Below, piece by piece: positions 16,354 to 42,396 of a stretch of DNA of 51,442 nt. The notes under the pieces are model-generated. The model searched no databases. It was not told where the DNA came from and saw nothing but the letters and a program-made list of their open reading frames with translations. Origin of the DNA: an uncultured Gammaproteobacteria bacterium (lineage in GTDB: Bacteria; Patescibacteriota; Microgenomatia; Levybacterales; UBA12049); the NCBI GenBank assembly GCA_964525395.1, contig CAZGGU010000001.1, positions 20,456 to 71,897 of the forward strand, given 5' to 3'. Every line of letters starts with the position of its first letter. Position 1 is the first letter of the stretch. The translations under genes and the position numbers were made by a program.

Positions 16354-16406
16354 AACAATAAATTCGACTTTAACAAACGTCTTTTAAATAGTCAATGGAA
16401 TTTTAT

Positions 16407-16829: not shown

Positions 16830-16868
16830 ACTCTATTATAAACATGCGAGAAGACTAAGTGTCAACAA

Positions 16869-17099
16869 TTATTCTTGGAGATTCCCATGCACTGTGGGAT
16901 CATGAAGCGGTTTAAAAATTACTGACTCATCTTTCTCTCTTCTGCCTATTCTCAAATTTAATCCTTCACCATTAAATCCATTCTCTCCCATGCCGCCCGC
17001 TTTTAAAGTAAATTTTAATAAATCTAAAAACTCAGCTACTTCCCTAGGAGTTCTTAAATCCACTTGTAAAACAATGTTTCCCTTTTCTTCTTCCGTCAT
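16869..17099 (-). CDS. hypothetical protein (76 aa)
   Basis: ORF with TATAAT (17107-17112) 7 nt upstream of the ATG. No family recognised. Confidence 0.4.
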   Translation of the reverse strand: MTEEEKGNIVLQVDLRTPREVAEFLDLLKFTLKAGGMGENGFNGEGLNLRIGRREKDESVIFKPLHDPTVHGNLQE

Positions 17100-30666: not shown

Positions 30667-30909
30667 CTAAGGAGTTGGACTAATCATTACTTGAGTTTCT
30701 TTAAAACAACTCAAGATTTTTTCTTGATCACCATTAAATTTAGCTTCACAATTAGCAATCTTTGCGTCATTGAACCTTTTAACTGGATTCAGCGCTACCA
30801 AAACTCCTACCGCAAGTATACTCATCACAAAAAATGCGATTCCAAATGCAATTAAAATGAAAAATATGAAACTGCTATGTTTCTGTGATTTATTATTTTG
30901 TTTTGCCAT
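30667..30909 (-). CDS. small membrane-anchored protein (80 aa)
   Basis: One TM (FIFFILIAFGIAFFVMSILAVGVLVAL) and two Cys in the ectodomain. Its start overlaps the lepB stop. Confidence 0.5.
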   Translation of the reverse strand: MAKQNNKSQKHSSFIFFILIAFGIAFFVMSILAVGVLVALNPVKRFNDAKIANCEAKFNGDQEKILSCFKETQVMISPTP

Positions 30910-31463
30910 TATTCACAATTATTAAAACAGCGATTTGCATTAATAATGCTTACTATATTTGCTTCAGGCACAAAACCCCATGTACGAGAATCATAGCTAT
31001 GTTCTCTATTATCCCCCAACACAAAATAATTATTTTCAGGAACTGAGATTGTTTCACCTTCTGGAAATAAATCAGAGCCCGTTGTCATTCCCAGCTGGGT
31101 AGGAAATCCAAAAGCTTTTCCATTGACAAAGATATTACTATCTTGAATCTTAATTGTATCTCCTGGTACAGCTATAATTCGTGATATTCCATAACTAGTT
31201 GGATCCTTGGGAAACTTGAATACAACTGGTGTTCCCGTAGTCAAATCATCACCAGAATGATAGATGTCAGTTAAATAATACTGACCATTTTTGAAATTTG
31301 GATACATAGAGTCACCTTTTATCTGGAACGGTCTCGCTATTTGGGAGTATGTAAAACCGAAGATACCAATTGCTAAGATGGGAAGCGAAACAGCGCTAAC
31401 GCTTAAAAGCAAAGCCAAAATAATAAGATACTTTACTTTATTTGAACTTTTCTTTGCTGCCAT
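30909..31463 (-). CDS. lepB: type I signal peptidase (S26 family) with a non-canonical box D
   Basis: N-terminal TM, box B GDSMYPNF, and box E YFVLGDNREHSYDSRTWGFVP. Box D reads GISRIIAVPGD where (V/I)KR(V/I)IGxPGD is expected. Confidence 0.85.
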   Translation of the reverse strand: MAAKKSSNKVKYLIILALLLSVSAVSLPILAIGIFGFTYSQIARPFQIKGDSMYPNFKNGQYYLTDIYHSGDDLTTGTPVVFKFPKDPTSYGISRIIAVPGDTIKIQDSNIFVNGKAFGFPTQLGMTTGSDLFPEGETISVPENNYFVLGDNREHSYDSRTWGFVPEANIVSIINANRCFNNCE

Positions 31464-31466: not shown

Positions 31467-32156
31467 TTAATAGAGAAATTTAAAAGAATTAACTACTGTA
31501 TCAAAAGCTCTAGTTTTTGAGGGATCATCTATGTTTTTCGAAGAGATAGTATAAATAATATCTCCTTTTTTAAAAAATACTTTCTTTTCTAAATAACCCA
31601 CCGGTTGTTCTTTTTTAATAATATTTGGATTCGAAGCACCTTTTCCATAGATGGTCTCAAGTAAAGACTCATAAATCCCTTCTGTCATTTCAAATTCTGA
31701 ATATACTGCATTAACCCCACCCACATTGCGTTCGGAATATTTCCAGCCATCTGTTATTTCACTAAACAATGATGAATTAGAAATTTTGGCATAATCCATT
31801 GCTGATTTTTTAGTACCGATCGGTATAATACCACTTATTTTTATTTTTGATTTTCCCCTAGATAACTCTAGGATAAAATTATTAAAATTTGTTTTATCGA
31901 TCTCTGCCGACGCATACGAAGTTAAACTGTAAGTTGGGGGATAATTAAATTTAAAATTTCTTGCAAGATCTATATAAACTTGTGTCGTAGGTGTTTTCGA
32001 AGCATCATAAATTTGAAAATATTTAGATGTGTAATTAATTGGAATAATATTTGTTTTGATGATTATCAGATAAATGACTATCGCTCCAATAATTAATGAG
32101 ATTAAAGCAGTTACTATATAGAAAGCTAGATTATTTGCATTTTTATGCTTAGCCAT
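31467..32156 (-). CDS. membrane-anchored exported hypothetical protein
   Basis: N-terminal TM. The ectodomain begins FKFNYPPTYSL, a DcrB/PsbP-like start pattern (weak). Confidence 0.5.
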   Translation of the reverse strand: MAKHKNANNLAFYIVTALISLIIGAIVIYLIIIKTNIIPINYTSKYFQIYDASKTPTTQVYIDLARNFKFNYPPTYSLTSYASAEIDKTNFNNFILELSRGKSKIKISGIIPIGTKKSAMDYAKISNSSLFSEITDGWKYSERNVGGVNAVYSEFEMTEGIYESLLETIYGKGASNPNIIKKEQPVGYLEKKVFFKKGDIIYTISSKNIDDPSKTRAFDTVVNSFKFLY

Positions 32157-32157
32157 A

Positions 32158-32943
32158 TTAGTTTAGCTTGAAGGTTTTAAGTGAGGCGTCGATTGCAGCC
32201 TGATTAGCAGCCCATGCATCTGGAGTTGATGTGGCAGTAAGCACATATACTTTTCCGTTATCTACGACTAATAATTGTCTGTTTACGAGACTGAGTCCGC
32301 TCTGAGAAAATGCACCATCCATTTGATATGCTTGCACTCCATTTACAGTAACAGTTTTTTCATTGGTAACTTTATATCCTGGAATAGCTTTAGCTAGCTG
32401 CTCTTTAGCTGCTTTTGCATAATCTGTAAGAGTAAAGCCGGGAGCATCCTCACTAACAACATTAATTGAAGTCTGAGGAGATTTCGGATTTGTAAACATT
32501 ACTACTACTCCCTGCTGATCGCCCTTCGTCCAACCTGATGGAGGAGTGAAACTAAAAGAACCATCTGAATAAACTCCTGATGAATCCACTGCTCCTGAAT
32601 TCATTGCTTCACCCGTAGGCACTGGGGACATATATTTATCTAGTCCTGCTTCTTTTGCACACTGCTCTACGCATGCATTTTGCTGATCTTTAGGCATTTC
32701 CTGACATTTCTTGGAACATTCATAAACTTTTCCAAGATCTTGTTTAACTTGCGGATCAATCTTATCAAATGCGCTTTTAACTCCAACACCAATTAGGACG
32801 ATAAGGGCTAGAATAATTCCAAAAATAATAAGTACTATATATAAGAGCTTGTGGGATTTCTTTTTTTCAGCAGATGTTGATTCCTTAGGAGCTTCTACCT
32901 TAGTTTCTGTTTTTACTTCTGTTGTCTTATTATTTTCTTCCAT
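32158..32943 (-). CDS. membrane-anchored exported protein, Cys-rich helical segment plus DcrB/PsbP-like domain
   Basis: TM, then CSKKCQEM..QNACVEQC, then FSFTPPSGWTKG...VNGVQAY...GKVYVLTATS, typical of the DUF1795/PsbP-like fold (by eye). Confidence 0.5.
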   Translation of the reverse strand: MEENNKTTEVKTETKVEAPKESTSAEKKKSHKLLYIVLIIFGIILALIVLIGVGVKSAFDKIDPQVKQDLGKVYECSKKCQEMPKDQQNACVEQCAKEAGLDKYMSPVPTGEAMNSGAVDSSGVYSDGSFSFTPPSGWTKGDQQGVVVMFTNPKSPQTSINVVSEDAPGFTLTDYAKAAKEQLAKAIPGYKVTNEKTVTVNGVQAYQMDGAFSQSGLSLVNRQLLVVDNGKVYVLTATSTPDAWAANQAAIDASLKTFKLN

Positions 32944-33565: not shown

Positions 33566-33997
33566 TTATAAAAGTAAAGTATTCACAATCATGTAAACAA
33601 TCCATTTATTGTAAATGTAGTGAATTAAAACAGCGATAATGAAAGCCAAAATCAACCAGTAAACCCCTTTTTTTCCTAATAAATAAATAAATATAAAATT
33701 AGACGTATGAATAATGGTCGTAAAAACTAAACGGATTAAAAAAAGATTTGTATTTCCATTCAGAAATATATTATTTAAATATAAAATCGCTTCTGAAACA
33801 GAAAACAATATTCCCGCAAGAACTAGATACTTTAAGAGACTTTTCTTTAAAACTTTTTCTTGCTTATAAATAAGCAATACTATTAAAACCGTAAATAATT
33901 CTTCAATTATTGAAGGTATGGGTATAATCCACTCAATAAACAAGATTGGAAGAGGTGCGACAAAAGCTGCAAACAAAATAAGATATAAAACATTCAT
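33566..33997 (-). CDS. small polytopic membrane protein, possible minimal PrsW-like intramembrane protease
   Basis: 4-5 TMs. IIEELF (EE), FSVSEA (FxxxE), IIHTSN and LIHYIYN (HxxxN) occur in the order of the PrsW motifs. ATGA overlap with the upstream 1044-aa gene. Confidence 0.35.
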   Translation of the reverse strand: MNVLYLILFAAFVAPLPILFIEWIIPIPSIIEELFTVLIVLLIYKQEKVLKKSLLKYLVLAGILFSVSEAILYLNNIFLNGNTNLFLIRLVFTTIIHTSNFIFIYLLGKKGVYWLILAFIIAVLIHYIYNKWIVYMIVNTLLL

Positions 33998-36900
33998 TTA
34001 TCTACAATAAACTGATCGCTTACCCAGCCCTTTAAATTTTCACCGTCATATTGGAACTCAACTTGAATCCAGTTTTCTTTATGATTAACTTTCTTCGCAA
34101 GTACGCTTTTTTGTAATCTTTTTACTATTTGGGTATTAAGAGATGGCCCTTCTCTCAAATTAACTGCACTGGGGGAAGCAACAATTTCCACATTTTCCAT
34201 CTTAGTCCTTGCTCCCAAAACAGACTTTTCTCCAGATAAATCAACTTCTTCACGAGAACTTTCTGAGACTTCTTTCTGCTCTTCTCGAGAAGTTACTGTA
34301 TTCTTCTCTTCCAAGGCTGGCTTTGAAGACTTATCCTTAAACATAAAAATACCCAATATTAGCGATAAACCCAAAACGATAATCATCATAAAAGCAATAA
34401 CTTTTTTAGATATTAACTTATCGAATTCATAGAAAATATTTGTAATCGGAGAGAAATAACTAGCATAAAATCCTTTTGTATTTCCTCCGTCTTTTTTTCT
34501 GCTTCCTACGAAGATTAGTCGCATATATAAAGCAAGAAAGATAAAGCCAGCTAATAGCACAATTATTATTCCCCAGACAGCTAAAACTTGTGCCCCTCCC
34601 ACGAATCCAAAAAGCGACCCAGCAGAGCTGGCAGAAGTTCCGAGCGTTTTCAAATCATTTATCTCAGATTTAGCTTTATCAACTTGAATTACTGCATCCC
34701 TATATGCCTTAATCCTCTCTTCAGGAGTATTGGCATCTTTTTGAATTCTTGATGCAGAGTCTAAAGAGGCAACAATATCAGCATAAAGCGTCGCGCCTTG
34801 CCCAAAATATGAAGTCCCTTTAAGTGGCGCGTATAATTCTTTTGCTTGAATTCTTAGCGAAGATATTTCTTCATCTGATATTTTCCAAATATCTTTAACT
34901 TCAACTGAATATATTCTCGTGGCATTTGCTGCCAATACTACTTGCCCGCTGGCATAATATGCATCTTCAGCCGCATCATATTCAATTGTTAAATCATCAT
35001 CTTTTTTTATTACATCTTTCTCTGTTGCTTCTTTTGGCAAATAAAACTTAACTGGAATTGTCTGAGCCACACCGGTGGGATTAGTTATCAACGTTTTAAA
35101 AATAATACTGCCTTCTTCCATCCAGGTCTGAACGATAGGGCTTTTTGTACCATTTTCTAGTAAAGATTTATTTGCTTGAGTCAATGCTTGCAATGAAAGT
35201 ACACTATTTTTAAGACTTTGCAGATCCGAAGCATTTGCTTGCGAAAGCGTTAATATTTCCGAAACGCCCGAAATAGAATTTGAATCTGAAACATCTGTGG
35301 AAATTGCATTTATTTCATCGATAATATCAGCAGCTGTATAACTATCCCACTTAGCAAGTAGATCTGAAAGCCCAGCGCCAGATGTATCAAGATTTTGAAT
35401 TGTTTCTTTATTTAACTTTAATCTTCCATATAAGGTCGCTGCAGAAGAGGTGTCTGTGCTTGTTCCAATTTTAGTCTGCATGGAAGAAATCTCAGTAATA
35501 ATCGATTGCATATCTTCATAGGCAGTCGTAGATTTCCCGTTGTAATTAAGTTCATTCTTTAAATCATCAATATCTGATTGAGTAGCTGTAGCCGAATTGT
35601 AAATATCATCAGCTGTTCTTGAGCCCCATTTGCCTTTAATACAATTAACCTGTCCAAAAATAGTTGAATCTAAACAACCATCCGCTGCGTCCCCCAACGA
35701 GGAATTGTCGAGAGCATTTACTGCTGTCATTAAATCTGCCATCGTATAGCTTCCCCATTTTGCTAAGATTGTATCTGCCTTGGTATCTATACCGTCCACC
35801 GTCGTATTGATCGAATCCACATTCGTACTAATAGTATTAACCGTGGTAGAAACGCCTGCCACTTCAGTTGAAACATCAGATAGACTTTTATTATTAGGTC
35901 CTTTTATCGAGATCGTACTAGATGAAACATCGTCCCTTGTGGCTTGAATTTTTCCAAAAACTGTAAGCGCCGAAGAATTATCCCCCGATGCTCCAATATT
36001 GTTATTCAATGTTTGAGCGTAAGTCTTTATCGCCTGCAAATCATCATATGCGGTAGAAGATTTACCATTATAGTTAAGCTCATTTCTAAGTGCAGCCGAA
36101 TAAGTGGCTGCATTATTAGCTGCCAAATAAAGTGAGTCCGCAGTCTGACTTCCCCATTTATCCCTAACGCATTTTATACTTCCGAAGATTGTACTTCCGG
36201 AACAAATATCAGAATTTGAACCTAAACTTGTCTCGAGAGTATCCACATAACCTATCAAATCGCTTGCGCTATATGATCCCCACTTAGAAAGAATTGAAGA
36301 TGCATTAGAATTTATAGTATCTACTTTTGTGTCCATGGAGTTAACCGTAGTAGTCAACGAATCAATTGAAGATTGGGCTGTAGCAATACTTGTATTAATC
36401 TGCGTTAAATCCTTATTTCCCGCACCTTTTATAGATGTAGTGGCTGAGGAAGTAGCAGAATCTACATCTGATTTAGTAGCCAATTGTCCACCATCAGCTA
36501 AATTCGCACCAGTCAAGGTTCGCGTCGCACTACTCCAAACATCAGCAACAAGTGTTCCAAACGTGGTCAGTGACCTCGCTGAATAGCTCCATATGTCAGA
36601 GATAAGTGTGCCAAATGAACTAAGTGTCCTTGAAGGGTAACTCCAGATATCTGCAGTTGAAGGAACAGTATTCTGTAGCTTTTCTCCGAAACTTCCTGAC
36701 GTCACATGGGCACTGGCTGTCGCATTCCAAACTTGATCTGCTGTTTTTTCTTCAATGGTAAAAGACTTATCGAGCTTCAGTGTATCACCGCCCGTTACAC
36801 AAGTTATCTGACTTCTATATAAGCCAAGGGTCATATTAGAAGTGTTAAATGTATATGAATACCAGCCATCGCTTTCAGCAGCTGATGTCATAGATTGACC

Positions 36901-37128
36901 ATTTAAAAAGAGGGATCCATCGGGGTAACGACTAGTTAGGGTGCAGGTAGCGTCTGTGATTGGCGCATATGAATCATCATAAAGATATTCACCTATTGAG
37001 CAAGCCGAGCCTTCTGCGCATTTTTGATAACCTGCACTTGATGCATCCACAATACCTGGGACAATAAATACGTAAGATAATATAAAGATTATAGATAAGA
37101 TAATCTTTAACTTATTAGACAGAAGCAT
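33994..37128 (-). CDS. 1044-aa repeat-containing surface protein: Sec signal, beta-sandwich, W-repeats, ~180-aa tandem repeats, two TMs, C-terminal SH3b
   Basis: Signal peptide ending VDA/SS with no twin arginine. Internal repeats are listed as separate features. The TM pair lies near aa 860-945. The C-terminus, VNLREGPSLNTQIV...NWIQVEF...LKGWVSDQFI, fits bacterial SH3. The start lies 2 nt after the tatA stop. Confidence 0.75.
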   Translation of the reverse strand: MLLSNKLKIILSIIFILSYVFIVPGIVDASSAGYQKCAEGSACSIGEYLYDDSYAPITDATCTLTSRYPDGSLFLNGQSMTSAAESDGWYSYTFNTSNMTLGLYRSQITCVTGGDTLKLDKSFTIEEKTADQVWNATASAHVTSGSFGEKLQNTVPSTADIWSYPSRTLSSFGTLISDIWSYSARSLTTFGTLVADVWSSATRTLTGANLADGGQLATKSDVDSATSSATTSIKGAGNKDLTQINTSIATAQSSIDSLTTTVNSMDTKVDTINSNASSILSKWGSYSASDLIGYVDTLETSLGSNSDICSGSTIFGSIKCVRDKWGSQTADSLYLAANNAATYSAALRNELNYNGKSSTAYDDLQAIKTYAQTLNNNIGASGDNSSALTVFGKIQATRDDVSSSTISIKGPNNKSLSDVSTEVAGVSTTVNTISTNVDSINTTVDGIDTKADTILAKWGSYTMADLMTAVNALDNSSLGDAADGCLDSTIFGQVNCIKGKWGSRTADDIYNSATATQSDIDDLKNELNYNGKSTTAYEDMQSIITEISSMQTKIGTSTDTSSAATLYGRLKLNKETIQNLDTSGAGLSDLLAKWDSYTAADIIDEINAISTDVSDSNSISGVSEILTLSQANASDLQSLKNSVLSLQALTQANKSLLENGTKSPIVQTWMEEGSIIFKTLITNPTGVAQTIPVKFYLPKEATEKDVIKKDDDLTIEYDAAEDAYYASGQVVLAANATRIYSVEVKDIWKISDEEISSLRIQAKELYAPLKGTSYFGQGATLYADIVASLDSASRIQKDANTPEERIKAYRDAVIQVDKAKSEINDLKTLGTSASSAGSLFGFVGGAQVLAVWGIIIVLLAGFIFLALYMRLIFVGSRKKDGGNTKGFYASYFSPITNIFYEFDKLISKKVIAFMMIIVLGLSLILGIFMFKDKSSKPALEEKNTVTSREEQKEVSESSREEVDLSGEKSVLGARTKMENVEIVASPSAVNLREGPSLNTQIVKRLQKSVLAKKVNHKENWIQVEFQYDGENLKGWVSDQFIVDK
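35293..36453 (-). repeat. two full and one partial ~180-aa tandem coding repeats in the 1044-aa protein
   Basis: Unit 1 (aa ~226-400) and unit 2 (aa ~402-580) share ILxKWGSYxxxDL..., C..STIFG...C..KWGS.TAD, NELNYNGKS.TAY.D.Q and S.A.T..G. A third copy starts LLAKWDSYTAADI. Each full unit has a Cys pair 11 residues apart. Confidence 0.8.
36499..36738 (-). repeat. four short ~18-aa repeats (A/S)D(I/V)W(S/N)xxxR(T/S)Lxx(F)G(T)L
   Basis: ADQVWNATASAHVTSGSFGEKL, ADIWSYPSRTLSSFGTL, SDIWSYSARSLTTFGTL and ADVWSSATRTLTGANL, at aa 130-210. Confidence 0.75.
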
Positions 37129-37130
37129 TG

Positions 37131-37310
37131 TTATTCTTTACTTTCTTTTTTATCTTTAGCTTTTTCTTCATCACCTCGAAAAGCACCTAAGACTTCTTTA
37201 ATTGCTTGGGACAAGCCTTTTGCGAATTCTGGCAATTTTTTAGGACCAAAAATTATTAAAAGGACTACAGCAACGATTATTATTTCAGTTTTACCTATAC
37301 TATCAAACAT
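37131..37310 (-). CDS. tatA: twin-arginine translocase subunit TatA/E (59 aa; below the ORF-track cutoff)
   Basis: Translation: MFDSIGKTEIIIVAVVLLIIFGPKKLPEFAKGLSQAIKEVLGAFRGDEEKAKDKKESKE. This shows the canonical TM, the FGPKKLPE hinge and an amphipathic helix. A GGAGG Shine-Dalgarno sequence lies 9 nt upstream. Confidence 0.9.
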   Translation of the reverse strand: MFDSIGKTEIIIVAVVLLIIFGPKKLPEFAKGLSQAIKEVLGAFRGDEEKAKDKKESKE

Positions 37311-37336
37311 GTATAAACACCTCCCTTCAAGAGCAG

Positions 37337-38053
37337 TTAATGTCTATTTAATAGTAGCCCAAACTCGAATAAAAAGAAAAGTGGCAAAGTTAACATAATT
37401 AATGAGAAAAGGTCTGTCGGCGGGAGCAAAACGGCTACCAAGAGTAGCCCTAGATAAACATATTTTCTCTTTTTCACCATCTCACTCCTTTTTACAATTT
37501 TTAATCTAATTAAAATAGTAACAATTATCGGGACTTGGAAAATAATTCCAGTCAGAAATGAAGTAAATAAAATCTGCGAAAGAAAATTCTGAATGTCCCA
37601 AAAACTATCGACCCCAGAAGAAGTCCAGACATTGGAATAAAAATTTATAATCTGCTGCATAATCCACATTCCAAACGAAAAGCCAACGATAAAAAGAAAA
37701 ATTGAAAGTGGAGCAAAAGAAAGTATTATTTTTCTCTCTGTAGGCTTTAATGCAGGCTTAAAAAAAAGATAAAGCCTAATAAATGAGTAGGGAAGTGCAA
37801 TAATAATTCCTACTATAAAACTTACAGTAAAAGTGAGACTGATATACTGATACGGAGATGTGGTAATTATGCTTACATTTTTAAAGTTATATAACCCAAG
37901 AATAAAATCGACGATTTTCTGACTATTTACTAGTCCAAAAATTGCCCCCACTATAAAAATTACGAATATAATAAAAACTTGCAATCTAAGCTCCAGTAAA
38001 TAGGGCCTATATTTTATATAAAGTTCGTTTAATTCTTGCGATTTATCTTCCAT
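37337..38053 (-). CDS. tatC: twin-arginine translocase subunit TatC
   Basis: LLELR, TSPYQYISLTFTVS, FFKPALKPTERK, FQVPIIV, KRKYVYLGLLLVAVLLPPTDLFS and FLFEFG align along the whole length with TatC. Six TMs. Confidence 0.92.
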   Translation of the reverse strand: MEDKSQELNELYIKYRPYLLELRLQVFIIFVIFIVGAIFGLVNSQKIVDFILGLYNFKNVSIITTSPYQYISLTFTVSFIVGIIIALPYSFIRLYLFFKPALKPTERKIILSFAPLSIFLFIVGFSFGMWIMQQIINFYSNVWTSSGVDSFWDIQNFLSQILFTSFLTGIIFQVPIIVTILIRLKIVKRSEMVKKRKYVYLGLLLVAVLLPPTDLFSLIMLTLPLFFLFEFGLLLNRH

Positions 38054-38080
38054 TTACAGCTAATCGTAACATTTTTATCC

Positions 38081-38110
38081 TTGAACAAACAATAAAAGTA
38101 AATATACAAT
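38081..38110 (+). promoter_or_regulatory. promoter of the three-gene beta-rich module, leaderless geometry
   Basis: TTGAAC, 18 nt, TACAAT, then 6 nt to the ATG at 38117. No Shine-Dalgarno sequence. Confidence 0.5.
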
Positions 38111-38116
38111 GTAAGA

Positions 38117-38533
38117 ATGGCAGCCAAATTTGACCCAATTTTAGGCAAGCTTAGAACTGAGGACAGAGGAGTTACAGAAGGTAGCTTTGGAATAACTATT
38201 GATGGTGGTGGAAATGTAATTACAACTGGCACGAAAGGGTATGTAACAATTCCCTACGACTGCACTATTACTGGTTGGGATATTTTCGCAGACCAAACTG
38301 GTTCATGCGTAATTGACCTCTGGAAGGATACCTATTCGAACTTCGCACCAACTATTGCAGATACCATAACGGGTACTGAAAAACCCACACTTAGCTCTCA
38401 ACAAAAAAACAGAGACACCTCCCTCACCACCTGGACAACGAATATTTCAGCTGGAGATATCATAGCGTTTAATGTCGACAGCGCTTCGACAGTACAGCGC
38501 GTAAATGTTATTATAAAAGTTAATAAGATTTAA
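38117..38533 (+). CDS. 138-aa signal-less beta-rich protein (module gene A); possibly related to small proteins of phage tail/structural modules
   Basis: GITIDGGGNVITTGTKGYVTIPYDCTITGWDIFADQTGSCVIDLWKDTYSNFAPT...W.T.I.AGD...FNV. From memory I associate this pattern with ~130-aa phage-encoded proteins; unverified. No signal peptide or TM. Confidence 0.55.
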   Translation: MAAKFDPILGKLRTEDRGVTEGSFGITIDGGGNVITTGTKGYVTIPYDCTITGWDIFADQTGSCVIDLWKDTYSNFAPTIADTITGTEKPTLSSQQKNRDTSLTTWTTNISAGDIIAFNVDSASTVQRVNVIIKVNKI

Positions 38534-38535
38534 AT

Positions 38536-40707
38536 ATGGCTAAACTCGCAGTAAATATTAATTATGGAAACTTAGCTACCTATGTTTTTCCTGGTGGATA
38601 TGATTCAACTAAGTTAGGTCTTGGACCTCTGATTACTCAAAAAAATGGAGGCGGAGAAGGCAATTATGCTGGCCCATATCCGATCGCACTTGCTCGCCCA
38701 ATGGAACAAAGTACAGCAATACCCGGGATCTATCCATGGGCTATGCAGTGGTCTTCAACTATTGATTGGGTCTTTCTAGCTGATAATGCAGCTGCAGCAG
38801 CCACCAGAAGAATAATTCTTTACACATACAATCGCGCAACAAACGCATTCTCCTGGCAAGGTTTTATCACTATTGGCTTTCCATTCGGTGGAACCCAAGG
38901 AACATACACAATCACTGGCATGAGGATGACCTACGACACATATTCTACGGGTTCAGCAAGCGCATCAGGCACTGCTGTCACCGGCTCTACAACCGCGTGG
39001 CAAACCGCCAGAATAGCTGTGGGAGCAAGGATAGGCTTTGGATCTACTGATCCAACGCAAATTACCACTTGGTATGATATTTCCGCGATCGGCAGCGACA
39101 CAAGCATTACACTTAGCACTTCCGCAGGTACTGTAAATTCTGGATCATACGTTATCGAAGAATTAAGAGCTATTGTCCTTACAAAAAACGGCACCACTGC
39201 TACCAACGGAGGCTTATTTATAGTTAAAGGATTAAATTACTCAACATTTAACACCGCTGGTTCACCTACTATCGCAGCCGCAACCACGACTGATAACATA
39301 CGGGCAACTTATTGGGTAAAAGATGCAGCCACATCTACCAACACCAATGGAACTGGACTAGCTATACAGACTAAGGACTCAAATACTCAGCATTACGTCT
39401 GGGTACTACAAGGTACTACTACTATGCAGCTTTATAAATATAATCTAAGAGCCGCACTAACACTCACCTCTGGTGCGGATACTGCTAATTCTTGGCAATT
39501 TTCTACAGGCGTTACTGCAACACTAACAGGTACTGCATCACAGGCTAATAACGGCAGACTTGCAAACATGTCTTCTGGGCCTGGCTCAGGCCTTAACTGT
39601 ATTTACTTCACAACAACAACCAGAATATATCGATCAGTTGATGTATCAACAATTACCACTGGTGTAACAAATTTCCTTGCAGACAATTCGGCTGAAATAC
39701 CCCCTGGAAGCGCAAGCTCTACAGCTGCATCCTCTCTGCTAAACAGCATTGAGTACGCCACGTCATTAGATAAGATGATAGTTATGACTACGGGGGCAGC
39801 AGGCGTCAGGTCCTATGTAACGCAATACAGAACTGATTCTGGACAATGGGATAGACTTTTTTTGATAGACAATAAGCAAATTGATCAATCATTAGCAGAT
39901 TCTACTCTTACTCCTTTTCCTTCAATCCTTGCAAGAGCATTTTCGGTTTGGTCAGAAGGTGGAGTTGCCTATTTAGCTGGTATCGGCACAACGGCGGCCA
40001 CTAACTTACTTTATGCAATTCCATTAGGAGCAGATTGGGAATATACTTCTACCACAAACTGCAGAGTTGTAACACCATCTTTAAGTACTCCGAATGTAGA
40101 CTCTTTTGATAAAGTTTATACTAACTCCGTAACAATTCTGGGCGGCGCTACTGGACAAGTATTGGGCTTACCACTCGAAGCATTTGAAACTCATTACAGA
40201 ACAACAGGAATTTCTGATAACTCTGGCAGCTGGATTACCCTAGATGACAGTGGAGATCTATCAAGCGTATCGCCCTCAAATGAAATTCAGTTTGCTTTTG
40301 ACTTTAGAACAATCGGAACTACATGCATACCTGCTAGGCTCTTAAGCACAACAGTTACGTATAACGATCTATCTACAGATAGTCATTTCCAGCCATCAGT
40401 TACAAATTCATCCGCCGCTACAAAAATATTTTCATGGAGGTTTTCCACTGCTTTTGGAGGAACTGTACCTGCAATGAGAATTCGACTATATAATGCTGTT
40501 ACAAATGGAAGCTTACTTGATGATAACACTACAGATCATGCATCAGGTACTTGGGAGCAATCAACAGACGGTGGTTCTAATTGGTCTTCATATACAACAG
40601 TTGGGAGTCCTTTGGCTGATAAAGCAAATGAAACTACTTACATACGCTATACACCTACTTCGATTGCCGATAATATAAAAGTCAGAGCATTATTAACTCA
40701 AAACTAA
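38536..40707 (+). CDS. 723-aa signal-less T/S/A/G-rich, Lys-poor protein (module gene B): putative beta-propeller plus C-terminal beta-sandwich with an Asp-box
   Basis: About 14 Lys in 723 aa, against Lys-rich neighbours. Recurrent blade-like strands (RRIILYTY, GLFIVKG, HYVWVLQG, NCIYFTT, KMIVMTT, GVAYLAG). STDGGSNW (40561-40584) fits SxDxGxxW. The start lies 2 nt after the gene A stop. Confidence 0.6.
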   Translation: MAKLAVNINYGNLATYVFPGGYDSTKLGLGPLITQKNGGGEGNYAGPYPIALARPMEQSTAIPGIYPWAMQWSSTIDWVFLADNAAAAATRRIILYTYNRATNAFSWQGFITIGFPFGGTQGTYTITGMRMTYDTYSTGSASASGTAVTGSTTAWQTARIAVGARIGFGSTDPTQITTWYDISAIGSDTSITLSTSAGTVNSGSYVIEELRAIVLTKNGTTATNGGLFIVKGLNYSTFNTAGSPTIAAATTTDNIRATYWVKDAATSTNTNGTGLAIQTKDSNTQHYVWVLQGTTTMQLYKYNLRAALTLTSGADTANSWQFSTGVTATLTGTASQANNGRLANMSSGPGSGLNCIYFTTTTRIYRSVDVSTITTGVTNFLADNSAEIPPGSASSTAASSLLNSIEYATSLDKMIVMTTGAAGVRSYVTQYRTDSGQWDRLFLIDNKQIDQSLADSTLTPFPSILARAFSVWSEGGVAYLAGIGTTAATNLLYAIPLGADWEYTSTTNCRVVTPSLSTPNVDSFDKVYTNSVTILGGATGQVLGLPLEAFETHYRTTGISDNSGSWITLDDSGDLSSVSPSNEIQFAFDFRTIGTTCIPARLLSTTVTYNDLSTDSHFQPSVTNSSAATKIFSWRFSTAFGGTVPAMRIRLYNAVTNGSLLDDNTTDHASGTWEQSTDGGSNWSSYTTVGSPLADKANETTYIRYTPTSIADNIKVRALLTQN

Positions 40708-40708
40708 C

Positions 40709-40894
40709 ATGGCTTTAGAGGATATCGTATTTCCAGATGGAGACCCGCAAAACTTTATTCAAACCATGAATAGAGGCAATGTGGGCACAATTAGCGATAT
40801 TACCACTGAAACAAACTCCAACTCAGGTATACTTTTAGCAGAATGGACCTCTGCCACTACAGCCGAAACTACTGCATTCACCTGGGTATCTTAA
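40709..40894 (+). CDS. 61-aa signal-less acidic T-rich protein (module gene C)
   Basis: The ATG lies 1 nt after the gene B stop. Its composition matches A and B (no Lys). Confidence 0.45.
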   Translation: MALEDIVFPDGDPQNFIQTMNRGNVGTISDITTETNSNSGILLAEWTSATTAETTAFTWVS

Positions 40895-41737
40895 CTAGAA
40901 TGTAGCACTAAATGAAGCATAACTTTCTGAAGCTCTATTTGACCAATTATAACTACTGCCCCCTTTCGCATATAAGAAAGATCCATCCCCAACTTCTTTT
41001 ACAATATACCAAGCACCATCTTTATTTATGAAACCATAATAATAGGGGGTAGAAGAGGTATCCGTGTTAGCGATAGCATAACCGTCAGTTGGAGATTTGA
41101 TTGCTGGATCAATTAATGTTCCCGTTGTGTCTTTAATACCTACAGTTCCGGGCCCTGGTACACTACCAAAAAAAGCCGCACCTGCTTTTTGAGGATTTAA
41201 CATCATTGCTACAAAAACACCAAGACCAGCTCCTGCTAATAACTTAAAAAACTTTCTTCGATCAGCCTCTTTAACAATTTCTCCATTTTTAATCTCAGCC
41301 ACATCGTCAATCTGAAAGTTAAAAATATTTTCTTCATAGCTTGATATTTTTCTACCTTTTTTTATAGGCGAAACATTTTTAACACTACTTATAATTTTTA
41401 ATAAGAAATATATCTCAAGAGGCAAAAAGAATAACACGAAAAATATTTCATCTGCGCTGTGGATATTTAATATTATGGAGAGAAAAAGAACATTAGAAAA
41501 AATAAAGCTATAATAATTAAGAAAGTGCATCATCTTCTTAGATTGATTCTTAGAAATAACACCTTTTATAACTGGTGCAATATTTAGAAGATTTAATAAG
41601 AAGTATGCCTCAATAGGAATAAGTAAAATTAAAAATAAAAGATTATTAATTTGATCCTCATCATTGAAACCAATAAAGAGCAAACAAGAAACCAAGAATA
41701 AATTATAAATTAATAATATATTAATGACCTTCTTCAT
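40895..41737 (-). CDS. polytopic membrane protein: duplicated 2-TM hairpin (4 TMs), internal twin-arginine signal/5th TM, ~95-aa exported C-domain
   Basis: The duplicated segments share PIEAYFLLNLL / PLEIYFLLKII and FNDEDQI / HSADEIF. aa 157-188 read EADRRKFFKLLAGAGLGVFVAMMLNPQKAGA, i.e. RRxF(F/L)K plus an h-region plus an AxA-like site. Confidence 0.65.
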   Translation of the reverse strand: MKKVINILLIYNLFLVSCLLFIGFNDEDQINNLLFLILLIPIEAYFLLNLLNIAPVIKGVISKNQSKKMMHFLNYYSFIFSNVLFLSIILNIHSADEIFFVLFFLPLEIYFLLKIISSVKNVSPIKKGRKISSYEENIFNFQIDDVAEIKNGEIVKEADRRKFFKLLAGAGLGVFVAMMLNPQKAGAAFFGSVPGPGTVGIKDTTGTLIDPAIKSPTDGYAIANTDTSSTPYYYGFINKDGAWYIVKEVGDGSFLYAKGGSSYNWSNRASESYASFSATF

Positions 41738-42396
41738 TTCCTTTTCTCCCTTATATTTTTATCAGGCACCCAACCTAACTCGACTTGACCTTCGATCTTA
41801 ATTTGGTACCAGCCAGCAGTTTTTTTAAAATAATCTACTTCTGAGCCGACTTGAAGTGAAGTAATCACAGCCGAAATAGTAGTTCCATCTTTATAAACAT
41901 CAACTGCTTTTCGCACAGGATCATAAATCTCTACTTTTCCAAGCGAATTAGGCGCAATTTGATTCTTGGCAGACGTAGGGTGAACATAGCTAGAACTATT
42001 TACCGAATAATACTCACCAGCAACTTTTGTAGATTGATCTGCACTAATTACACCAGATGTGGTCGATGCTGATAAAACACCATAGTCAATATCATCAGCA
42101 CCATTTGTAATAATATTATCCACTCTTGCACTTAATTTTTTTAGCTTTTCCGTGTTCCCATCTGCCATTTTTTTTGCTTCGACTTCAGACTGACGTAAAA
42201 CTGTCAGCTCTAGCTCATGACGCTTCTTTTCTTCTTGAAGTGAATTAATTTTTATATATCCCGCAAAACAAATGATTAACGGAACAATTAACAATAGGGC
42301 AATCAAGCCTAATTTTTTCTTTTCCTTGAATATATTTTCTAAATCTAGATTCTCTTTTTTCCACGGAATAAAATTGGGCAAATTAAAGTCCGACAT
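41734..42396 (-). CDS. bitopic protein: N-terminal TM, coiled coil, C-terminal SH3b-like domain
   Basis: TM LGLIALLLIVPLIICFAGYI, a heptad-like EEKKRHELELTVLRQSEVEAKK, and a C-terminal VDVYKDGTT...GSEVDYFKKTAGWYQIKIEGQVELGWVPDKNI. ATGA-type overlap with the downstream gene. Confidence 0.6.
   Translation of the reverse strand: MSDFNLPNFIPWKKENLDLENIFKEKKKLGLIALLLIVPLIICFAGYIKINSLQEEKKRHELELTVLRQSEVEAKKMADGNTEKLKKLSARVDNIITNGADDIDYGVLSASTTSGVISADQSTKVAGEYYSVNSSSYVHPTSAKNQIAPNSLGKVEIYDPVRKAVDVYKDGTTISAVITSLQVGSEVDYFKKTAGWYQIKIEGQVELGWVPDKNIREKRK

What the first reader, a model, noticed from the sequence alone, without database searches (positions are those of the whole stretch)
33566..42396. 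Candidate novel Tat-centred cell-surface module: tatC-tatA-giant SH3b protein-PrsW-like operon, divergent signal-less beta-protein trio, internal-Tat-signal membrane protein and a second SH3b protein
Nine contiguous genes form a coherent unit that I cannot assign to a described system.
- The operon tatC-tatA-(1044-aa repeat protein)-(PrsW-like protease) is packed with 2-26-nt gaps or overlaps.
- 63 nt away, divergently, a leaderless promoter drives three tightly coupled genes (A 138 aa, B 723 aa, C 61 aa). Their products look extracellular in composition (T/S/A/G-rich, almost Lys-free, Asp-box) but have no Sec or Tat signal and no TM.
- Immediately convergent, with zero spacing, is the only protein in the window with a near-consensus twin-arginine motif (DRRKFFKLL...AGA). 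It is co-transcribed with a TM/coiled-coil/SH3b protein.
- SH3b peptidoglycan-binding domains bracket the locus.

Hypothesis (inference): A, B and C fold in the cytoplasm and are exported by Tat hitchhiking on the RR-bearing protein, as is known for hydrogenase and DMSO-reductase subunits. The complex is then tethered to the wall by the SH3b proteins, giving a surface adhesin or attachment apparatus in a probable episymbiont. An alternative is holin/peptidoglycan-remodelling-dependent (type-10-like) release, because gene D has a duplicated 2-TM holin-like N-domain.
Basis: partly seen in the sequence, partly recalled or inferred. Interest (0 to 1): 0.8.

Follow-up and report, generated by a model that had tools for sequence, protein, structure and literature searches.

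The report
Tat-exported phage-fibre module in CPR bacteria
Ultrasmall CPR (Patescibacteria) bacteria carry a widely conserved gene cluster in which proteins borrowed from bacteriophage fibres are linked to their own folded-protein export machine (Tat) and to a giant surface-anchored protein, which may be an undescribed cell-surface apparatus of these symbionts.

Summary
The core recurs in about 60 CPR genome loci and in metagenome contigs found from tatC alone. That core is a Tat-signal protein D, a large signal-less beta protein, small partner proteins, tatC, tatA and a giant surface protein.

A, B and C are not orphans. They are a phage fibre module, found in about 200 IMG/VR viral contigs with no Tat genes nearby. 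In phages the A domain is the C-terminal end of the tail-fibre protein just upstream of B.

The mature domain of canonical D is homologous to signal-less phage proteins, one of them encoded directly upstream of B. The N-terminal module of the giant protein shows weak similarity to the phage gene that follows B-C. The CPR gene order therefore appears to mirror the phage order. The additions are tatC-tatA, a Tat signal on the first gene and a Sec-type signal on the giant.

A second, unrelated phage protein family (B2) replaces B in other clusters.

Best reading: D carries folded phage-derived cargo out through a dedicated TatAC, and the cargo is mounted on the anchored giant fibre. Export of B itself is inferred, not shown. 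I found no description of this in the literature.

The parts
33566..33997 (-). Small polytopic membrane protein (143 aa), last gene of the tat operon; possibly a PrsW/CPBP-like intramembrane protease.
   Evidence: ORF. No Pfam, PHROG or NCBIfam hit. It is conserved after the giant gene in window-type clusters L005, L066, L162/L163 and L168. The 43%-identical L163 homolog has a weak precomputed PF13367 hit.
33994..37128 (-). Giant surface protein (1044 aa). It has a Sec-type signal, an Ig-like N-domain, W..RTL(S/T)xFGTL..D.W repeats, a Thr/Ser-rich fibre region, two C-terminal TM segments and a C-terminal SH3b domain.
   Evidence: for the sequence; SH3_3 at residues 987-1041. The first ~260 residues are conserved in 63 CPR loci next to tatA. 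The same motif occurs in phage protein L082_13, encoded just after B-C (weak, HMM E 6e-4). Canonical relatives end in a dockerin instead of TM+SH3b.
37131..37310 (-). tatA (59 aa)
   Evidence: PF02416, 1.1e-13; found in 58 related loci.
37337..38053 (-). tatC (238 aa)
   Evidence: PF00902, 2e-44. It retains the LLELR and PTERK glutamates, which I identify by eye with E. coli TatC E15 and E103. It accompanies the cluster in 59-60 of 62 CPR loci.
38081..38110 (+). Promoter-like site in the 63-nt divergent intergenic region. It ends 7 nt before A's start codon.
   Evidence: This is a consensus match only, and such sites are not enriched over shuffled sequence.
38117..38533 (+). A (138 aa): a free-standing copy of a phage tail-fibre C-terminal domain. 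No signal peptide.
   Evidence: phrog_35197 at 1e-29 and phrog_10330 'virion structural protein' at 4e-19. It matches T4-like cyanophage structural proteins in the tail-fibre region. In 30 of 80 IMG/VR loci it is the extreme C-terminus of the protein directly upstream of B, with up to 67% identity over a partial segment and up to 64% over most of A. That upstream protein is a tail fibre by PHROGs in L101.
38536..40707 (+). B (723 aa): a signal-less all-beta protein with a beta-propeller, belonging to a closed, highly conserved family shared by phages and CPR.
   Evidence: More than 1800 homologs at 50-80% identity and 394 representatives. AlphaFold model with pLDDT 84.6. Foldseek hits to a podovirus nozzle protein, tail tubular protein B, P22 gp10 and endosialidase propellers, with low TM-scores. 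Found in 199 IMG/VR stretches, where neighbours are mostly tail-fibre families. No hit in GenBank phage isolates, Pfam, PHROGs, NCBIfam or PDB sequences.
40709..40894 (+). C (61 aa): small partner protein with a conserved N-terminus (MAL(T/E)DI.F), encoded after B in both CPR and phages.
   Evidence: A family of 55 members in CPR loci. Phage homologs lie directly after B.
40895..41737 (-). D (280 aa): four N-terminal TM helices, a cytoplasmic linker, an internal Tat signal and a conserved ~94-aa exported domain.
   Evidence: Model; motif. It has 326 homologs, mainly in the Microgenomates group, one named 'Twin-arginine translocation signal domain-containing protein' by UniRef. It shares the Tat signal and the FGSxPxxxxVGIKDxxGxxIxPA segment with canonical D.
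41177..41269 (-). Tat signal segment of D (residues 157-187): EADRRKFFK, then the h-region, then AGA|A.
   Evidence: R161, F163 and K165 are invariant or nearly so. An AxA-like site is present in 94 of 98 family members.
41734..42396 (-). E (220 aa): TM segment, coiled coil and C-terminal SH3b domain, translationally coupled to D.
   Evidence: SH3_3 at 1.7e-6. An SH3_3 or E-like gene lies directly upstream of window-type D in L005, L162/L163, L164, L166 and L168.

Best explanation
This is a CPR-specific cell-surface system built from a domesticated bacteriophage fibre module plus a dedicated minimal TatAC translocase.

**Proposed mechanism, with the status of each step**
1. A, B and C are phage fibre-module proteins that normally fold and assemble in the cytoplasm. 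Their phage origin is shown. That they are virion components is inferred from gene context.
2. D is the only component with a twin-arginine signal. The motif is shown; actual Tat targeting is inferred.
3. D binds the folded, signal-less cargo in the cytoplasm, and the adjacent TatAC exports the complex by hitchhiking. This step is inferred.
4. In the window variant, D's four upstream TM helices would be inserted by Sec/YidC and the RR helix by Tat. Signal peptidase could then cut at AGA|A. This step is inferred.
5. Outside the cell, the cargo is mounted on the conserved N-terminal module of the giant, Sec-exported fibre protein. The fibre is held on the cell by TM segments plus SH3b in the window, or by dockerin with cohesin-like membrane proteins in the common form. 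This step is inferred.
6. The large cargo protein is exchangeable (B, B2 or others), as receptor-binding tips are in phages. The most likely role is therefore contact with, or enzymatic attack on, a target cell surface or glycan by these putative episymbionts. This step is speculative.
For: **Conserved unit**
- The order D > B > F3 > C > tatC > tatA > giant > two cohesin-like genes occurs in about 60 of 77 genome loci.
- TatC is present in 59-60 of 62 loci with enough flank, and D is immediately upstream of B in 52 of 53.
- The flanking genes differ from locus to locus.

**Reverse test from TatC.** About 25 metagenome contigs had at least 4.4 kb upstream of tatC. Of these, 13 have D-B-F3-C, 8 have D with a different ~945-aa cargo, and 4 have nothing detected. 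The giant gene follows tatC in nearly all.

**Tat signal.** In 98 D sequences the motif is (D/E)xx(K/R)RxF(L/I)K. There are 49 KR and 47 RR forms, F in 94, K in 95, and an AxA-like site in 94. D is the only such motif in the window.

**Signal-less cargo.** None of 269 B homologs has the motif, and their N-termini are conserved and non-hydrophobic.

**Phage origin of the cargo**
- B occurs in 199 IMG/VR stretches with no tatC, tatA, D or giant nearby.
- The A domain is the C-terminus of the tail-fibre protein upstream of B.
- F3 and C follow B in phages too.
- Neighbours of B in phages are mostly tail-fibre families.

**Link between D and the cargo.** The mature domain of canonical D is homologous to the C-terminus of signal-less phage proteins. 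One is encoded directly upstream of B (L097, E 1.6e-19). Another lies after the portal gene (L278). In CPR, therefore, a Tat signal has been added to a phage protein that is B's upstream neighbour in at least one phage.

**Cargo swapping**
- L163 and L168 keep tatC-tatA-giant-PrsW-like and E-D but carry other cargo.
- B2 is itself a phage protein, 41-60% identical over its full length in 28 viral contigs that lack Tat genes.

**Anchoring.** SH3b is present in the window. The canonical giant ends in Dockerin_1, followed by genes whose products look cohesin-like by eye (no Pfam cohesin hit) and carry a TM anchor.

**Topology.** The D model has four confident TM helices before the RR helix. An even number keeps the RR motif in the cytoplasm. 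Shorter family members have two TM helices.

**Strong constraint**
- B is 50-57% identical across loci where TatC is 30-37% identical.
- The mature domain of canonical D has 79% mean column identity.
- The conserved mature N-terminus of D is predicted disordered when modelled alone, as expected for a segment that folds on a partner.
Against: - No experiment or complex prediction shows that D binds A, B or C, or that any of them leaves the cell.
- Half of the D signals are KR rather than RR. KR is weaker in model Tat systems.
- The mature domain of the window-type D lacks the canonical C-terminal domain that has phage homologs, and it has no phage homolog of its own. The D-cargo link is therefore weaker for this particular window.
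- hhalign finds no similarity between the mature domain of D and the A domain.
- Such high conservation of B and D is unusual for surface proteins that would be exposed to host or phage selection.
- Only one of 80 B-bearing viral loci shows the D-type domain upstream of B.
- Foldseek TM-scores for B are low (0.2-0.3), so its fold class is only loosely defined.
- Some window-type D genes lie far from any tat gene (L164, L166, L167).
- Whether these genomes have other Tat substrates could not be checked.
Confidence: 0.55

Rival explanations
1. Only D is a Tat substrate. A, B and C (or B2) stay in the cytoplasm, or are released some other way such as cell lysis. They sit next to tat because the whole block was inherited from a phage or is co-regulated, not because they are co-exported.
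For: Nothing shows export of B. Cargo families lack any signal. The window-type D mature domain has no detectable relation to phage partners of B. Some D genes occur without tat or cargo nearby.
Against: Phage fibre proteins act outside the cell, so a cytoplasmic role is hard to picture. Two unrelated phage protein families occupy the same slot between D and tatC. Canonical D is a Tat signal fused to a domain carried by a phage protein encoded next to B. The association holds in about 60 loci with unrelated flanks.
Confidence: 0.2
2. The exported cargo is mainly an enzyme rather than an adhesin. B would be a glycan-degrading beta-propeller of sialidase or tailspike type, used for remodelling the cell's own wall or scavenging sugars from the host envelope. 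Tat export would serve only to deliver a protein that folds in the cytoplasm.
For: Foldseek matches include endosialidases, a pseudaminidase, an endo-arabinanase and a polysaccharide lyase. The sequence contains an Asp-box-like STDGGSNW motif. Natural fusions join B to PKD, BNR-sialidase and LamG-like modules (domains read by eye). Very high conservation suits an enzyme with an invariant substrate.
Against: No catalytic residues could be mapped. TM-scores are 0.2-0.3. Equally good matches are to non-enzymatic nozzle or tail-hub proteins. B is replaceable by the unrelated B2. The giant fibre and anchoring genes suggest display rather than release.
Confidence: 0.25
3. The block is a decaying prophage remnant, or a selfish mobile island, with no cellular function.
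For: A, B, C, F3, the mature domain of D and B2 all have phage homologs, and the N-terminal module of the giant has a weak phage match. GC content rises to 0.42 over 38-41 kb against about 0.35 around it. In non-CPR genomes, B lies in prophages.
Against: No terminase, portal, capsid or integrase gene flanks the cluster in the window. All genes are intact. B and D are under very strong constraint. The same architecture persists across the Paceibacteria and Microgenomates groups with different flanks. Tat genes and signals have been added in a consistent way. The GC rise is explained by the Thr/Ser/Ala/Gly-rich composition.
Confidence: 0.05
4. It is an anti-phage device. Displayed or secreted copies of phage fibre proteins would block or mask receptors used by phages carrying B- or B2-type fibres, giving superinfection exclusion by a decoy.
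For: The cargo is nearly identical in type to phage fibre-module proteins and is swapped between related genomes. Such swapping is typical of arms-race loci.
Against: The nine proteins were not scanned against PADLOC. Phages carrying B span GC 0.29-0.72 and mostly cannot be CPR phages. Extreme conservation of B and D is the opposite of arms-race diversification.
Confidence: 0.07
5. This is the first reader's alternative: release by a holin-like N-domain of D together with peptidoglycan remodelling (type-10-like secretion).
For: The window-type D has a duplicated 2-TM N-terminal module, and SH3b domains are present.
Against: Canonical D (57 loci, and more than 560 clusters) has no TM module, only a soluble n-region before the Tat motif. 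No muramidase, amidase or endolysin domain is found in the nine genes. The TM module always sits upstream of a consensus Tat signal, next to tatAC.
Confidence: 0.03

Closest known systems
Substrate-dedicated minimal TatAC translocases of Gram-positive bacteria (Bacillus subtilis tatAd-tatCd in one operon with its substrate phoD) - from established knowledge
   Same: A TatA/TatC pair with no TatB detected, encoded next to the protein that carries the twin-arginine signal and apparently serving mainly that locus.
   Different: The substrate here is not a cofactor or phosphate enzyme. It is a small carrier protein flanked by large signal-less phage-derived proteins and a giant surface fibre. Half of the signals are KR. 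One genome has two tatAC pairs within the same cluster.
Tat 'hitchhiker' co-export (E. coli hydrogenase-2 HybO/HybC, DMSO reductase DmsA/DmsB) - from established knowledge
   Same: One subunit bears the RR signal while the adjacent, larger partner has none and must fold before export. The gene arrangement here matches this.
   Different: No cofactor is involved. The cargo is of viral origin and exchangeable. Complex formation and co-export are not demonstrated.
Membrane proteins integrated jointly by Sec and Tat (actinobacterial Rieske protein and related cases) - from established knowledge
   Same: The window-type D has an even number of N-terminal TM helices, followed by an internal RR motif and a final hydrophobic helix.
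   Different: D has an AxA site after that helix, so the exported domain may be cut free. It has no cofactor domain.
Phage fibre, neck-fibre or tail-tip modules with exchangeable receptor-binding proteins; podovirus nozzle/tail-hub proteins (T7 gp12, P22 gp10, LME-1 nozzle, PMC12407071) and endosialidase tailspikes
   Same: The A domain belongs to PHROG 'virion structural protein' families in tail-fibre regions. B is structurally closest to nozzle, tail-hub and endosialidase beta-propeller proteins. The gene order fibre(A or D-type domain)-B-F3-C-next fibre gene is shared with phages.
   Different: In CPR there are no capsid, portal, tail tube or sheath genes. TatCA is inserted, a Tat signal is added to the first gene and a Sec signal to the last. 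TM-scores of 0.2-0.3 do not establish that B is a nozzle or a sialidase.
Domesticated phage-tail machines (tailocins/pyocins, extracellular contractile injection systems, T6SS)
   Same: Phage structural genes are kept under selection in a cellular genome for a cellular purpose.
   Different: Those systems keep the tube, sheath and baseplate, and are released by lysis or assembled in the cytoplasm. This one keeps only fibre-module proteins and couples them to Tat and Sec export and to surface anchoring.
Cohesin-dockerin surface assemblies (cellulosome scaffolds)
   Same: In the common form of the cluster, the giant protein ends in a type I dockerin. It is followed by two membrane-anchored proteins whose domains look cohesin-like by eye.
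   Different: No glycoside hydrolase modules were detected. The window uses TM plus SH3b instead. The cohesin assignment rests on sequence appearance only; there was no Pfam cohesin hit.

Membership tests
Tat translocase (minimal TatAC type) | A TatC family membrane protein | tested here: met
   PF00902, 2e-44, covering the full-length profile.
Tat translocase (minimal TatAC type) | A TatA/B/E family protein adjacent to TatC | tested here: met
   PF02416, 1.1e-13, 26 nt downstream of tatC.
Tat translocase (minimal TatAC type) | The conserved TatC glutamates that bind the arginine pair (E. coli E15 and E103) | tested here: inconclusive
   Glutamates are seen in LLELR and PALKPTERK, and one of them (E106) is nearly invariant in alignment A3. 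Equivalence to the E. coli residues was judged by eye, not by alignment to E. coli TatC.
Tat translocase (minimal TatAC type) | Transport of folded substrates, dependent on the RR motif | not testable with these tools
   Needs export assays.
Twin-arginine signal peptide | An (S/T)-R-R-x-F-L-K motif, a moderately hydrophobic h-region and an AxA c-region | tested here: met
   Window D reads DRRKFFK, then LLAGAGLGVFVAMML, then AGA|A. Across 98 family members the second R is present in 96, F in 94, K in 95 and an AxA-like site in 94. The first position is K in 50 and R in 48.
Tat hitchhiker complex | A signal-less partner encoded next to the signal-bearing subunit | tested here: met
   D is immediately upstream of B in 52 of 53 loci. 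No B homolog has a Tat motif.
Tat hitchhiker complex | The partners form a complex in the cytoplasm and are exported together | not testable with these tools
The only indirect support is that the D-type domain and B are neighbours in phage L097.
Dual Sec/Tat-integrated membrane protein | An even number of TM helices, then a cytoplasmic RR motif, then a final Tat-inserted helix | tested here: met
   The AlphaFold model has 4 TM helices (pLDDT above 90), then RR at residues 160-161 and a helix at 157-180. Shorter homologs have 2 TM helices. The mode of insertion was not tested.
Bacteriophage tail-fibre module | Sequence membership in phage structural families | tested here: met
   A matches phrog_35197 at 1e-29 and phrog_10330 at 4e-19. 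B, F3, C and B2 have full-length homologs in IMG/VR contigs. B and B2 themselves match no PHROG.
Bacteriophage tail-fibre module | Location among tail-fibre or virion genes in phage genomes | tested here: met
   The commonest annotated neighbours of B are tail fibre, collagen-like minor tail and tail protein families. In some phages B lies next to the portal, terminase or capsid genes instead.
Bacteriophage tail-fibre module | Presence of the protein in virions | not testable with these tools
   No cultured phage carries B.
Prophage | Flanking terminase, portal, capsid, tail tube or integrase genes | tested here: not met
   The window flanks hold nusA, signal peptidase I, DcrB/PsbP-like genes, a 2'-5' RNA ligase, dnaJ and glmS. 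CPR loci share no recurrent flanking families. Non-CPR loci carrying B do have these hallmark genes.
Podovirus nozzle / tail tubular protein B | Global fold match, and a position next to the adaptor and portal in a podovirus genome | tested here: inconclusive
   The best Foldseek hit is the 817-aa chain 9efk_M of the LME-1 portal-tail complex (E 1.8e-10), which I take to be the nozzle protein from its length and the paper. Tail tubular protein B and P22 gp10 are among the BFVD hits. However, TM-scores are 0.16-0.30. B also occurs in contigs of 200-518 kb and behind long tail fibres.
Sialidase/BNR beta-propeller glycosidase | A six-bladed propeller with the catalytic Arg triad and a Tyr/Glu nucleophile | tested here: inconclusive
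   Endosialidase hits at E 1e-7, TM about 0.3. One Asp-box-like motif is present.
PrsW protease | A match to PF13367 with its conserved motifs | tested here: inconclusive
   The window protein has no hit at E up to 0.1. Its L162/L163 homolog has a weak precomputed hit. EE, H and HxxxN motifs are visible by eye only.
SH3b cell-wall-binding domain | A match to the bacterial SH3 profile | tested here: met
   PF08239 at 1.7e-6, 28.6 bits against a cut-off of 27, in both the giant and E. Wall binding was not tested.
Type 10 / holin-endolysin-dependent secretion | A holin together with a peptidoglycan hydrolase in the locus | tested here: not met
   No hydrolase domain in the nine genes. The TM module of D is absent from canonical D.

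The most novel reading that the evidence does not exclude
Paceibacteria-type and Microgenomates-type CPR bacteria possess a lineage-wide surface organelle derived from a phage fibre. It consists of a giant anchored stalk whose tip is a folded phage receptor-binding-type complex. The tip is exported by its own Tat translocase through a carrier protein, and tip cassettes (B, B2 and others) are exchanged with phages. This organelle would set which host cells, or which surface glycans, the episymbiont can attach to or feed on. It would be a new class of Tat-dependent secretion and display system, and a molecular handle on CPR host range.
Probability: 0.3. Interest if true: 0.9.

Novelty: new variant of a known kind. 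Interest (0 to 1): 0.8.

Why it matters
- **Biology of CPR bacteria.** How CPR/Patescibacteria recognise and hold on to their hosts is largely unknown beyond type IV pili. It is also unexplained why such reduced, largely cofactor-poor genomes keep a Tat system. This cluster offers one testable answer to both: Tat is kept to export a folded, phage-derived surface complex.
- **Domestication of viral parts.** Only the fibre module is kept, and it is given cellular export signals. This has not been described before, as far as I could find.
- **Uncharacterised protein families.** The analysis exposes two large phage protein families, B and B2. Both are absent from cultured phages and from Pfam, PHROGs and NCBIfam, yet they are 40-60% identical between phages of very different hosts and CPR bacteria.
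- **A possible tool.** The carrier signal could be used to export folded proteins.

Tried and rejected
**Profile searches with no result**
- Pfam, PHROGs and NCBIfam gave nothing for B, C, D or the 143-aa protein.
- A PDB sequence-profile search with the B alignment gave no hit.
- tblastn of B, and of the window D mature domain, against 50,697 GenBank phage records gave no match.

**Comparisons that failed**
- hhalign of canonical D mature domain against the A domain found no similarity (probability 0.1). I dropped the idea that D is simply A with a signal.
- Foldseek of the D model against BFVD gave nothing below E 0.06.
- An IMG/VR scan with the window-type D mature domain found no relative.
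- PHROG scans of alternative cargo trios gave only marginal 'baseplate/tail protein' hits for the 123-aa proteins.

**Technical limits**
- The first TatC alignment was too diverse for a metagenome scan and had to be narrowed.
I could not do domain parsing or active-site mapping of B.

**Readings considered and rejected**
- I considered B as a true podovirus nozzle protein and did not adopt it. TM-scores are low, B occurs behind long tail fibres, and it occurs in contigs of more than 200 kb.
- I considered an S-layer protein and set it aside, because B has phage homologs and no signal.

**Literature searches.** Searches combined Patescibacteria or CPR with Tat, S-layer, tail fibre or cohesin/dockerin, and I checked the Southlakia Tn-seq paper. 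None described this cluster. PMC9166423 only notes that TatA and TatC are present in Microgenomatia, Paceibacteria and Saccharimonadia.

Full report
**1. Observation**

The nine ORFs, their strands and their spacings are exactly as described. The Pfam results are:
- tatC: PF00902, 2e-44.
- tatA: PF02416, 1e-13.
- A bacterial SH3 domain at the C-terminus of both the 1044-aa protein and the 220-aa protein E. The score of 28.6 bits is just above the cut-off of 27.

D (280 aa) is the only ORF in the 51-kb window with a Tat-type motif followed by a hydrophobic stretch and an AxA site: DRRKFFK-LLAGAGLGVFVAMML-NPQKAGA|AFF.

A, B, C and D have no Pfam or NCBIfam family. The 143-aa 'PrsW-like' protein has no profile hit of its own. 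A 43%-identical homolog carries a weak precomputed PrsW hit.

A promoter-like site ends 7 nt before A's ATG, but such sites are not enriched over shuffled sequence.

The near flanks are ordinary cellular genes: nusA, signal peptidase I, DcrB/PsbP-like genes, a 2'-5' RNA ligase-like gene, dnaJ and glmS.

B's closest named relative (78% identity) is from Candidatus Dojkabacteria, and D's relatives are from the Microgenomates group. The window is therefore most likely from that part of the CPR. This is an inference.

**2. A, B and C are a phage fibre module**

*Protein A*
- A matches phrog_35197 (1e-29) and phrog_10330 'virion structural protein' (4e-19).
- It also matches the C-terminal part of structural proteins in the tail-fibre region of T4-like cyanophages.

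*Protein B: family and fold*
- B has no PHROG hit and no hit in 50,697 GenBank phage records.
- It belongs to a closed family of about 700-890-aa proteins. There are more than 1800 clusters at 50-80% identity and 394 representatives.
- A confident AlphaFold model (pLDDT 84.6) is all-beta.
- Foldseek places it nearest to the LME-1 phage portal-tail complex chain M. That chain is 817 aa, which matches the nozzle protein described in PMC12407071.
- Other close hits are tail tubular protein B, P22 gp10-like proteins and endosialidase propellers.
- TM-scores are only 0.2-0.3. I therefore treat B as 'a beta-propeller protein of phage tail type', not as a nozzle or a sialidase.

*Protein B: genomic context in phages*
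- A scan of IMG/VR found 199 viral stretches encoding B. Their GC content ranges from 0.29 to 0.72, and the contigs reach 518 kb.
- None of the 80 loci examined has tatC, tatA, D or the giant nearby.
- In 30 of the 80, the A domain is the extreme C-terminus of the protein directly upstream of B, which ranges from 117 to 1646 aa.
- In L101 that upstream protein is a tail fibre by PHROGs, and in L088 it carries the A-domain families.
- Homologs of C, and of a further small protein F3, follow B in phages.
- Among 148 neighbours of B in viral loci, the commonest annotated families are tail fibre, collagen-like minor tail and tail protein.
- In some phages B lies next to terminase, portal or capsid genes instead.
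- The few non-CPR genome hits (Armatimonadota, Polaromonas, Dependentiae, Roseomonas and Lysinibacter MAGs) lack tat nearby. Those examined in detail, L021 and L037, are prophages.

**3. The Tat link is real and specific to CPR**

*Loci found through B*
- A scan of one genome per species found 77 loci with B, nearly all in Patescibacteria MAGs.
- tblastn and family clustering show a canonical co-directional operon, in this order:
  - D (~205 aa);
  - B (sometimes 2-3 paralogs in tandem);
  - F3;
  - C;
  - tatC;
  - tatA (one or two copies);
  - the giant (500-2300 aa);
  - two further genes.
- TatC is present in 59 of 62 loci with enough flanking sequence, plus one more seen only by tblastn.
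- D is immediately upstream of the first B in 52 of 53 loci.
- Flanking genes differ between loci, so this is not part of a larger island.

*Loci found through TatC alone*
- Searching metagenome contigs with TatC alone recovered the same cluster. About 25 contigs had at least 4.4 kb upstream of tatC.
- Of these, 13 have D-B-F3-C, 8 have D with a different large protein, and 4 have nothing detected.
- The giant follows tatC/tatA almost always.

*The window form*
- The window and its close relative L005 (B 93% identical) are a rearranged variant. It consists of tatC-tatA-giant-143aa on one strand, A-B-C divergent from it, and E-D convergent on it.

**4. D is a Tat-signal carrier derived from a phage protein**

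*The signal*
- Across 98 D sequences the motif is (D/E)xx(K/R)RxF(L/I)K, followed by an h-region and an AxA-like site.
- There are 47 RR and 49 KR forms. F is present in 94, K in 95 and the AxA-like site in 94.

*Canonical D*
- The mature domain is extraordinarily conserved. Mean column identity is 79%, and identity is 80-92% across hundreds of clusters named Pacebacteria or Vogelbacteria.
- This domain has signal-less phage homologs.
  - In phage contig L097, the 351-aa protein directly upstream of B ends in this domain (E 1.6e-19). The locus reads as 489 aa, 735 aa, this protein, then B, and I take the first two to be terminase and portal from size and position only.
  - In L278, a 350-aa coiled-coil protein ends in the whole mature region, including the IGIKD..G.KINPA segment. 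I read the 581-aa gene before it as the portal from its sequence.
- CPR bacteria have therefore placed a Tat signal on a phage protein that is B's upstream neighbour in at least one phage.

*Window-type D*
- This form is common in the Microgenomates group.
- It shares the signal and the first ~30 mature residues with canonical D, but has a different small beta domain and an N-terminal block of four TM helices (two in some members).
- The model is confident for these helices. Their even number keeps the RR motif in the cytoplasm.
- This arrangement resembles proteins integrated jointly by Sec and Tat (from established knowledge).
- The conserved mature N-terminus is predicted disordered in isolation, as expected for a partner-binding segment.
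- No phage homolog of the window-type mature domain was found.

**5. The giant protein and anchoring**

- The first ~260 residues of the giant are conserved in 63 loci. They comprise a signal peptide, an Ig-like domain and W..RTL(S/T)xFGTL..D.W repeats.
- The same motif and the same N-domain type occur in the phage protein encoded just after B-C (L082_13, and L002_15 in a prophage). The HMM support is weak (E 6e-4), but the motif match is plain.
- If that weak match holds, the CPR order D-B-F3-C-[tatC-tatA]-giant mirrors a phage gene order with tatCA inserted.
- In the canonical form the giant ends in a type I dockerin. It is followed by two membrane-anchored proteins that look cohesin-like by eye, with no Pfam cohesin hit.
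- In the window form the giant has two TM segments and SH3b. E adds a second SH3b, and a small PrsW-like membrane protein follows the giant.

**6. The cargo is exchangeable**

- L163, on a 707-kb contig, keeps tatC-tatA-giant (55% identical)-PrsW-like and E-D. It replaces A-B-C with proteins of 123, 124 and 1451 aa.
- L168 has proteins of 123, 123 and 984 aa in that position, and two tatAC pairs.
- In canonical operons, eight TatC-anchored contigs carry a ~945-aa protein in B's place. I call this family B2; its N-terminus reads MALTNNLKxxVDLPxFE.
- B2 is also a phage protein. It is 41-60% identical over its full length in 28 IMG/VR contigs (GC 0.26-0.64) that lack Tat genes. In one of them it lies in the structural region after the major head protein.
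- Two unrelated, signal-less phage protein families therefore occupy the same slot between a Tat-signal carrier and tatC.

**7. Interpretation**

*Shown*
- A conserved CPR cluster exists.
- The cargo, and canonical D's mature domain, are of phage origin.
- The Tat signal runs through the whole D family.
- The cargo has no signal.
- The cargo can be swapped.
- Anchoring domains are part of the unit.

*Inferred*
- D binds the folded cargo and carries it through TatAC.
- The complex is mounted on the giant fibre.
- The apparatus contacts or degrades target surfaces.

*Why Tat*
- Phage fibre proteins have evolved to fold and oligomerise in the cytoplasm, so they need a folded-protein exporter.

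*Main doubts*
- There is no direct evidence for a D-cargo complex or for export of the cargo.
- Half the signals are KR.
- B and D are unusually conserved for exposed proteins. B is 50-57% identical where TatC is 30-37%. This may point to an invariant ligand or a tightly packed assembly rather than host-specific recognition.
- The window-type D has a weaker link to phage partners than canonical D does.
- MAG taxon labels in several loci are unreliable, for example 'uncultured Gammaproteobacteria' for L005. My ORF calls in related loci are heuristic.

**8. Comparison with what is known**

- The system works like a substrate-dedicated TatAC operon (B. subtilis PhoD/TatAdCd) combined with Tat hitchhiking (HybOC, DmsAB).
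- In the window it also resembles dual Sec/Tat membrane proteins.
- Its cargo is related to phage fibre and tail proteins. Its anchoring recalls cohesin-dockerin or SH3b wall binding.
- It is not a prophage, because the hallmark genes are absent. It is not a tailocin or contractile system, because there is no tube, sheath or baseplate. It is not a holin-type release system, because there is no hydrolase and canonical D has no TM module.
- Literature searches found no description of it.

**9. Verdict**

- Novelty: a new variant built from known kinds of parts.
- Interest is high (0.8), because the cluster gives a concrete, testable candidate for both the role of Tat in CPR bacteria and a CPR surface or host-contact apparatus.

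Noticed in passing
L003:9584-9988 and alignment A7; proteins P0390-P0509: The mature domain of canonical D (~135 aa) is 80-92% identical across hundreds of 90%-identity clusters from different Paceibacteria-group lineages, with 79% mean column identity. That is far more conserved than TatC in the same loci (30-50%). It is unexplained for a small exported protein.
   Followed up: partly
L039, L040, L049, L053, L058, L059, L062, L063, L074, L080 (around 10001-17000 in each): Many canonical clusters carry two or three B paralogs in tandem (~880, ~805 and ~944 aa) between D and F3. This suggests hetero-oligomers or alternative tips.
   Followed up: no
P0165 (1935 aa), P0210 (2094 aa): Natural fusions join B at the N-terminus to what look by eye like a PKD domain, a BNR/Asp-box sialidase-like propeller and a LamG-like domain. 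Other B homologs have FN3-like or carbohydrate-binding-like N-terminal insertions (P0041, P0143, P0184).
   Followed up: no
L168:1396-2272 and 7663-8579: One Microgenomates-type genome has two tatA-tatC pairs within the same cluster. One pair lies next to E-D and the other next to the giant gene.
   Followed up: no
window 37337-38053: The window TatC matches phrog_36238 (1.8e-23, function unknown), so some sequenced phages encode TatC-like proteins.
   Followed up: no
window 38000-41000: GC content rises to 0.41-0.42 over A-B-C, against about 0.35 on either side. This is consistent with the Thr/Ser/Ala/Gly-rich composition of B (45%) and/or a foreign origin.
   Followed up: partly
window 30909-31463, 31467-32943: A signal peptidase I gene (Peptidase_S26, 5e-33) and two membrane-anchored DcrB/PsbP-like proteins lie just upstream of the cluster on the same strand. 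The peptidase could process the AxA sites of D and the giant.
   Followed up: no
L164:1-4072 (AP024680.1, Patescibacteria group bacterium): A protein of more than 2472 aa, with phage tail-fibre domains (Gp34_trimer, Peptidase_S74 intramolecular chaperone) and integrase-SAM-like hits, lies about 6 kb upstream of an E-D pair in a 786-kb CPR record. This is another phage-fibre-like giant in a CPR chromosome.
   Followed up: no
L005 (CAYQEJ010000006.1), L014, L029, L030, L033, L066, L072: Contigs with clear CPR-type clusters are labelled 'uncultured Gammaproteobacteria bacterium' in their records. Many others are labelled 'uncultured Candidatus Saccharibacteria', although the named protein homologs are from Paceibacteria or Microgenomates groups. 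These MAG labels look unreliable.
   Followed up: no
canonical D n-regions, e.g. L003:9359-9500: The ~45-residue n-region before the Tat motif of canonical D carries its own conserved motif (N/S)(K/R)(Y/F)SF(R/K)(L/F)(V/I). It could be a chaperone- or cargo-binding site.
   Followed up: no
L163:15207-15581 (124 aa) and L278:4383-5435: A short segment, xxG.xINPA(T/Q/K)(E/D)E, recurs in three places: the mature N-terminus of D, a small alternative-cargo protein, and the phage homolog of D. It may be a shared assembly motif.
   Followed up: no
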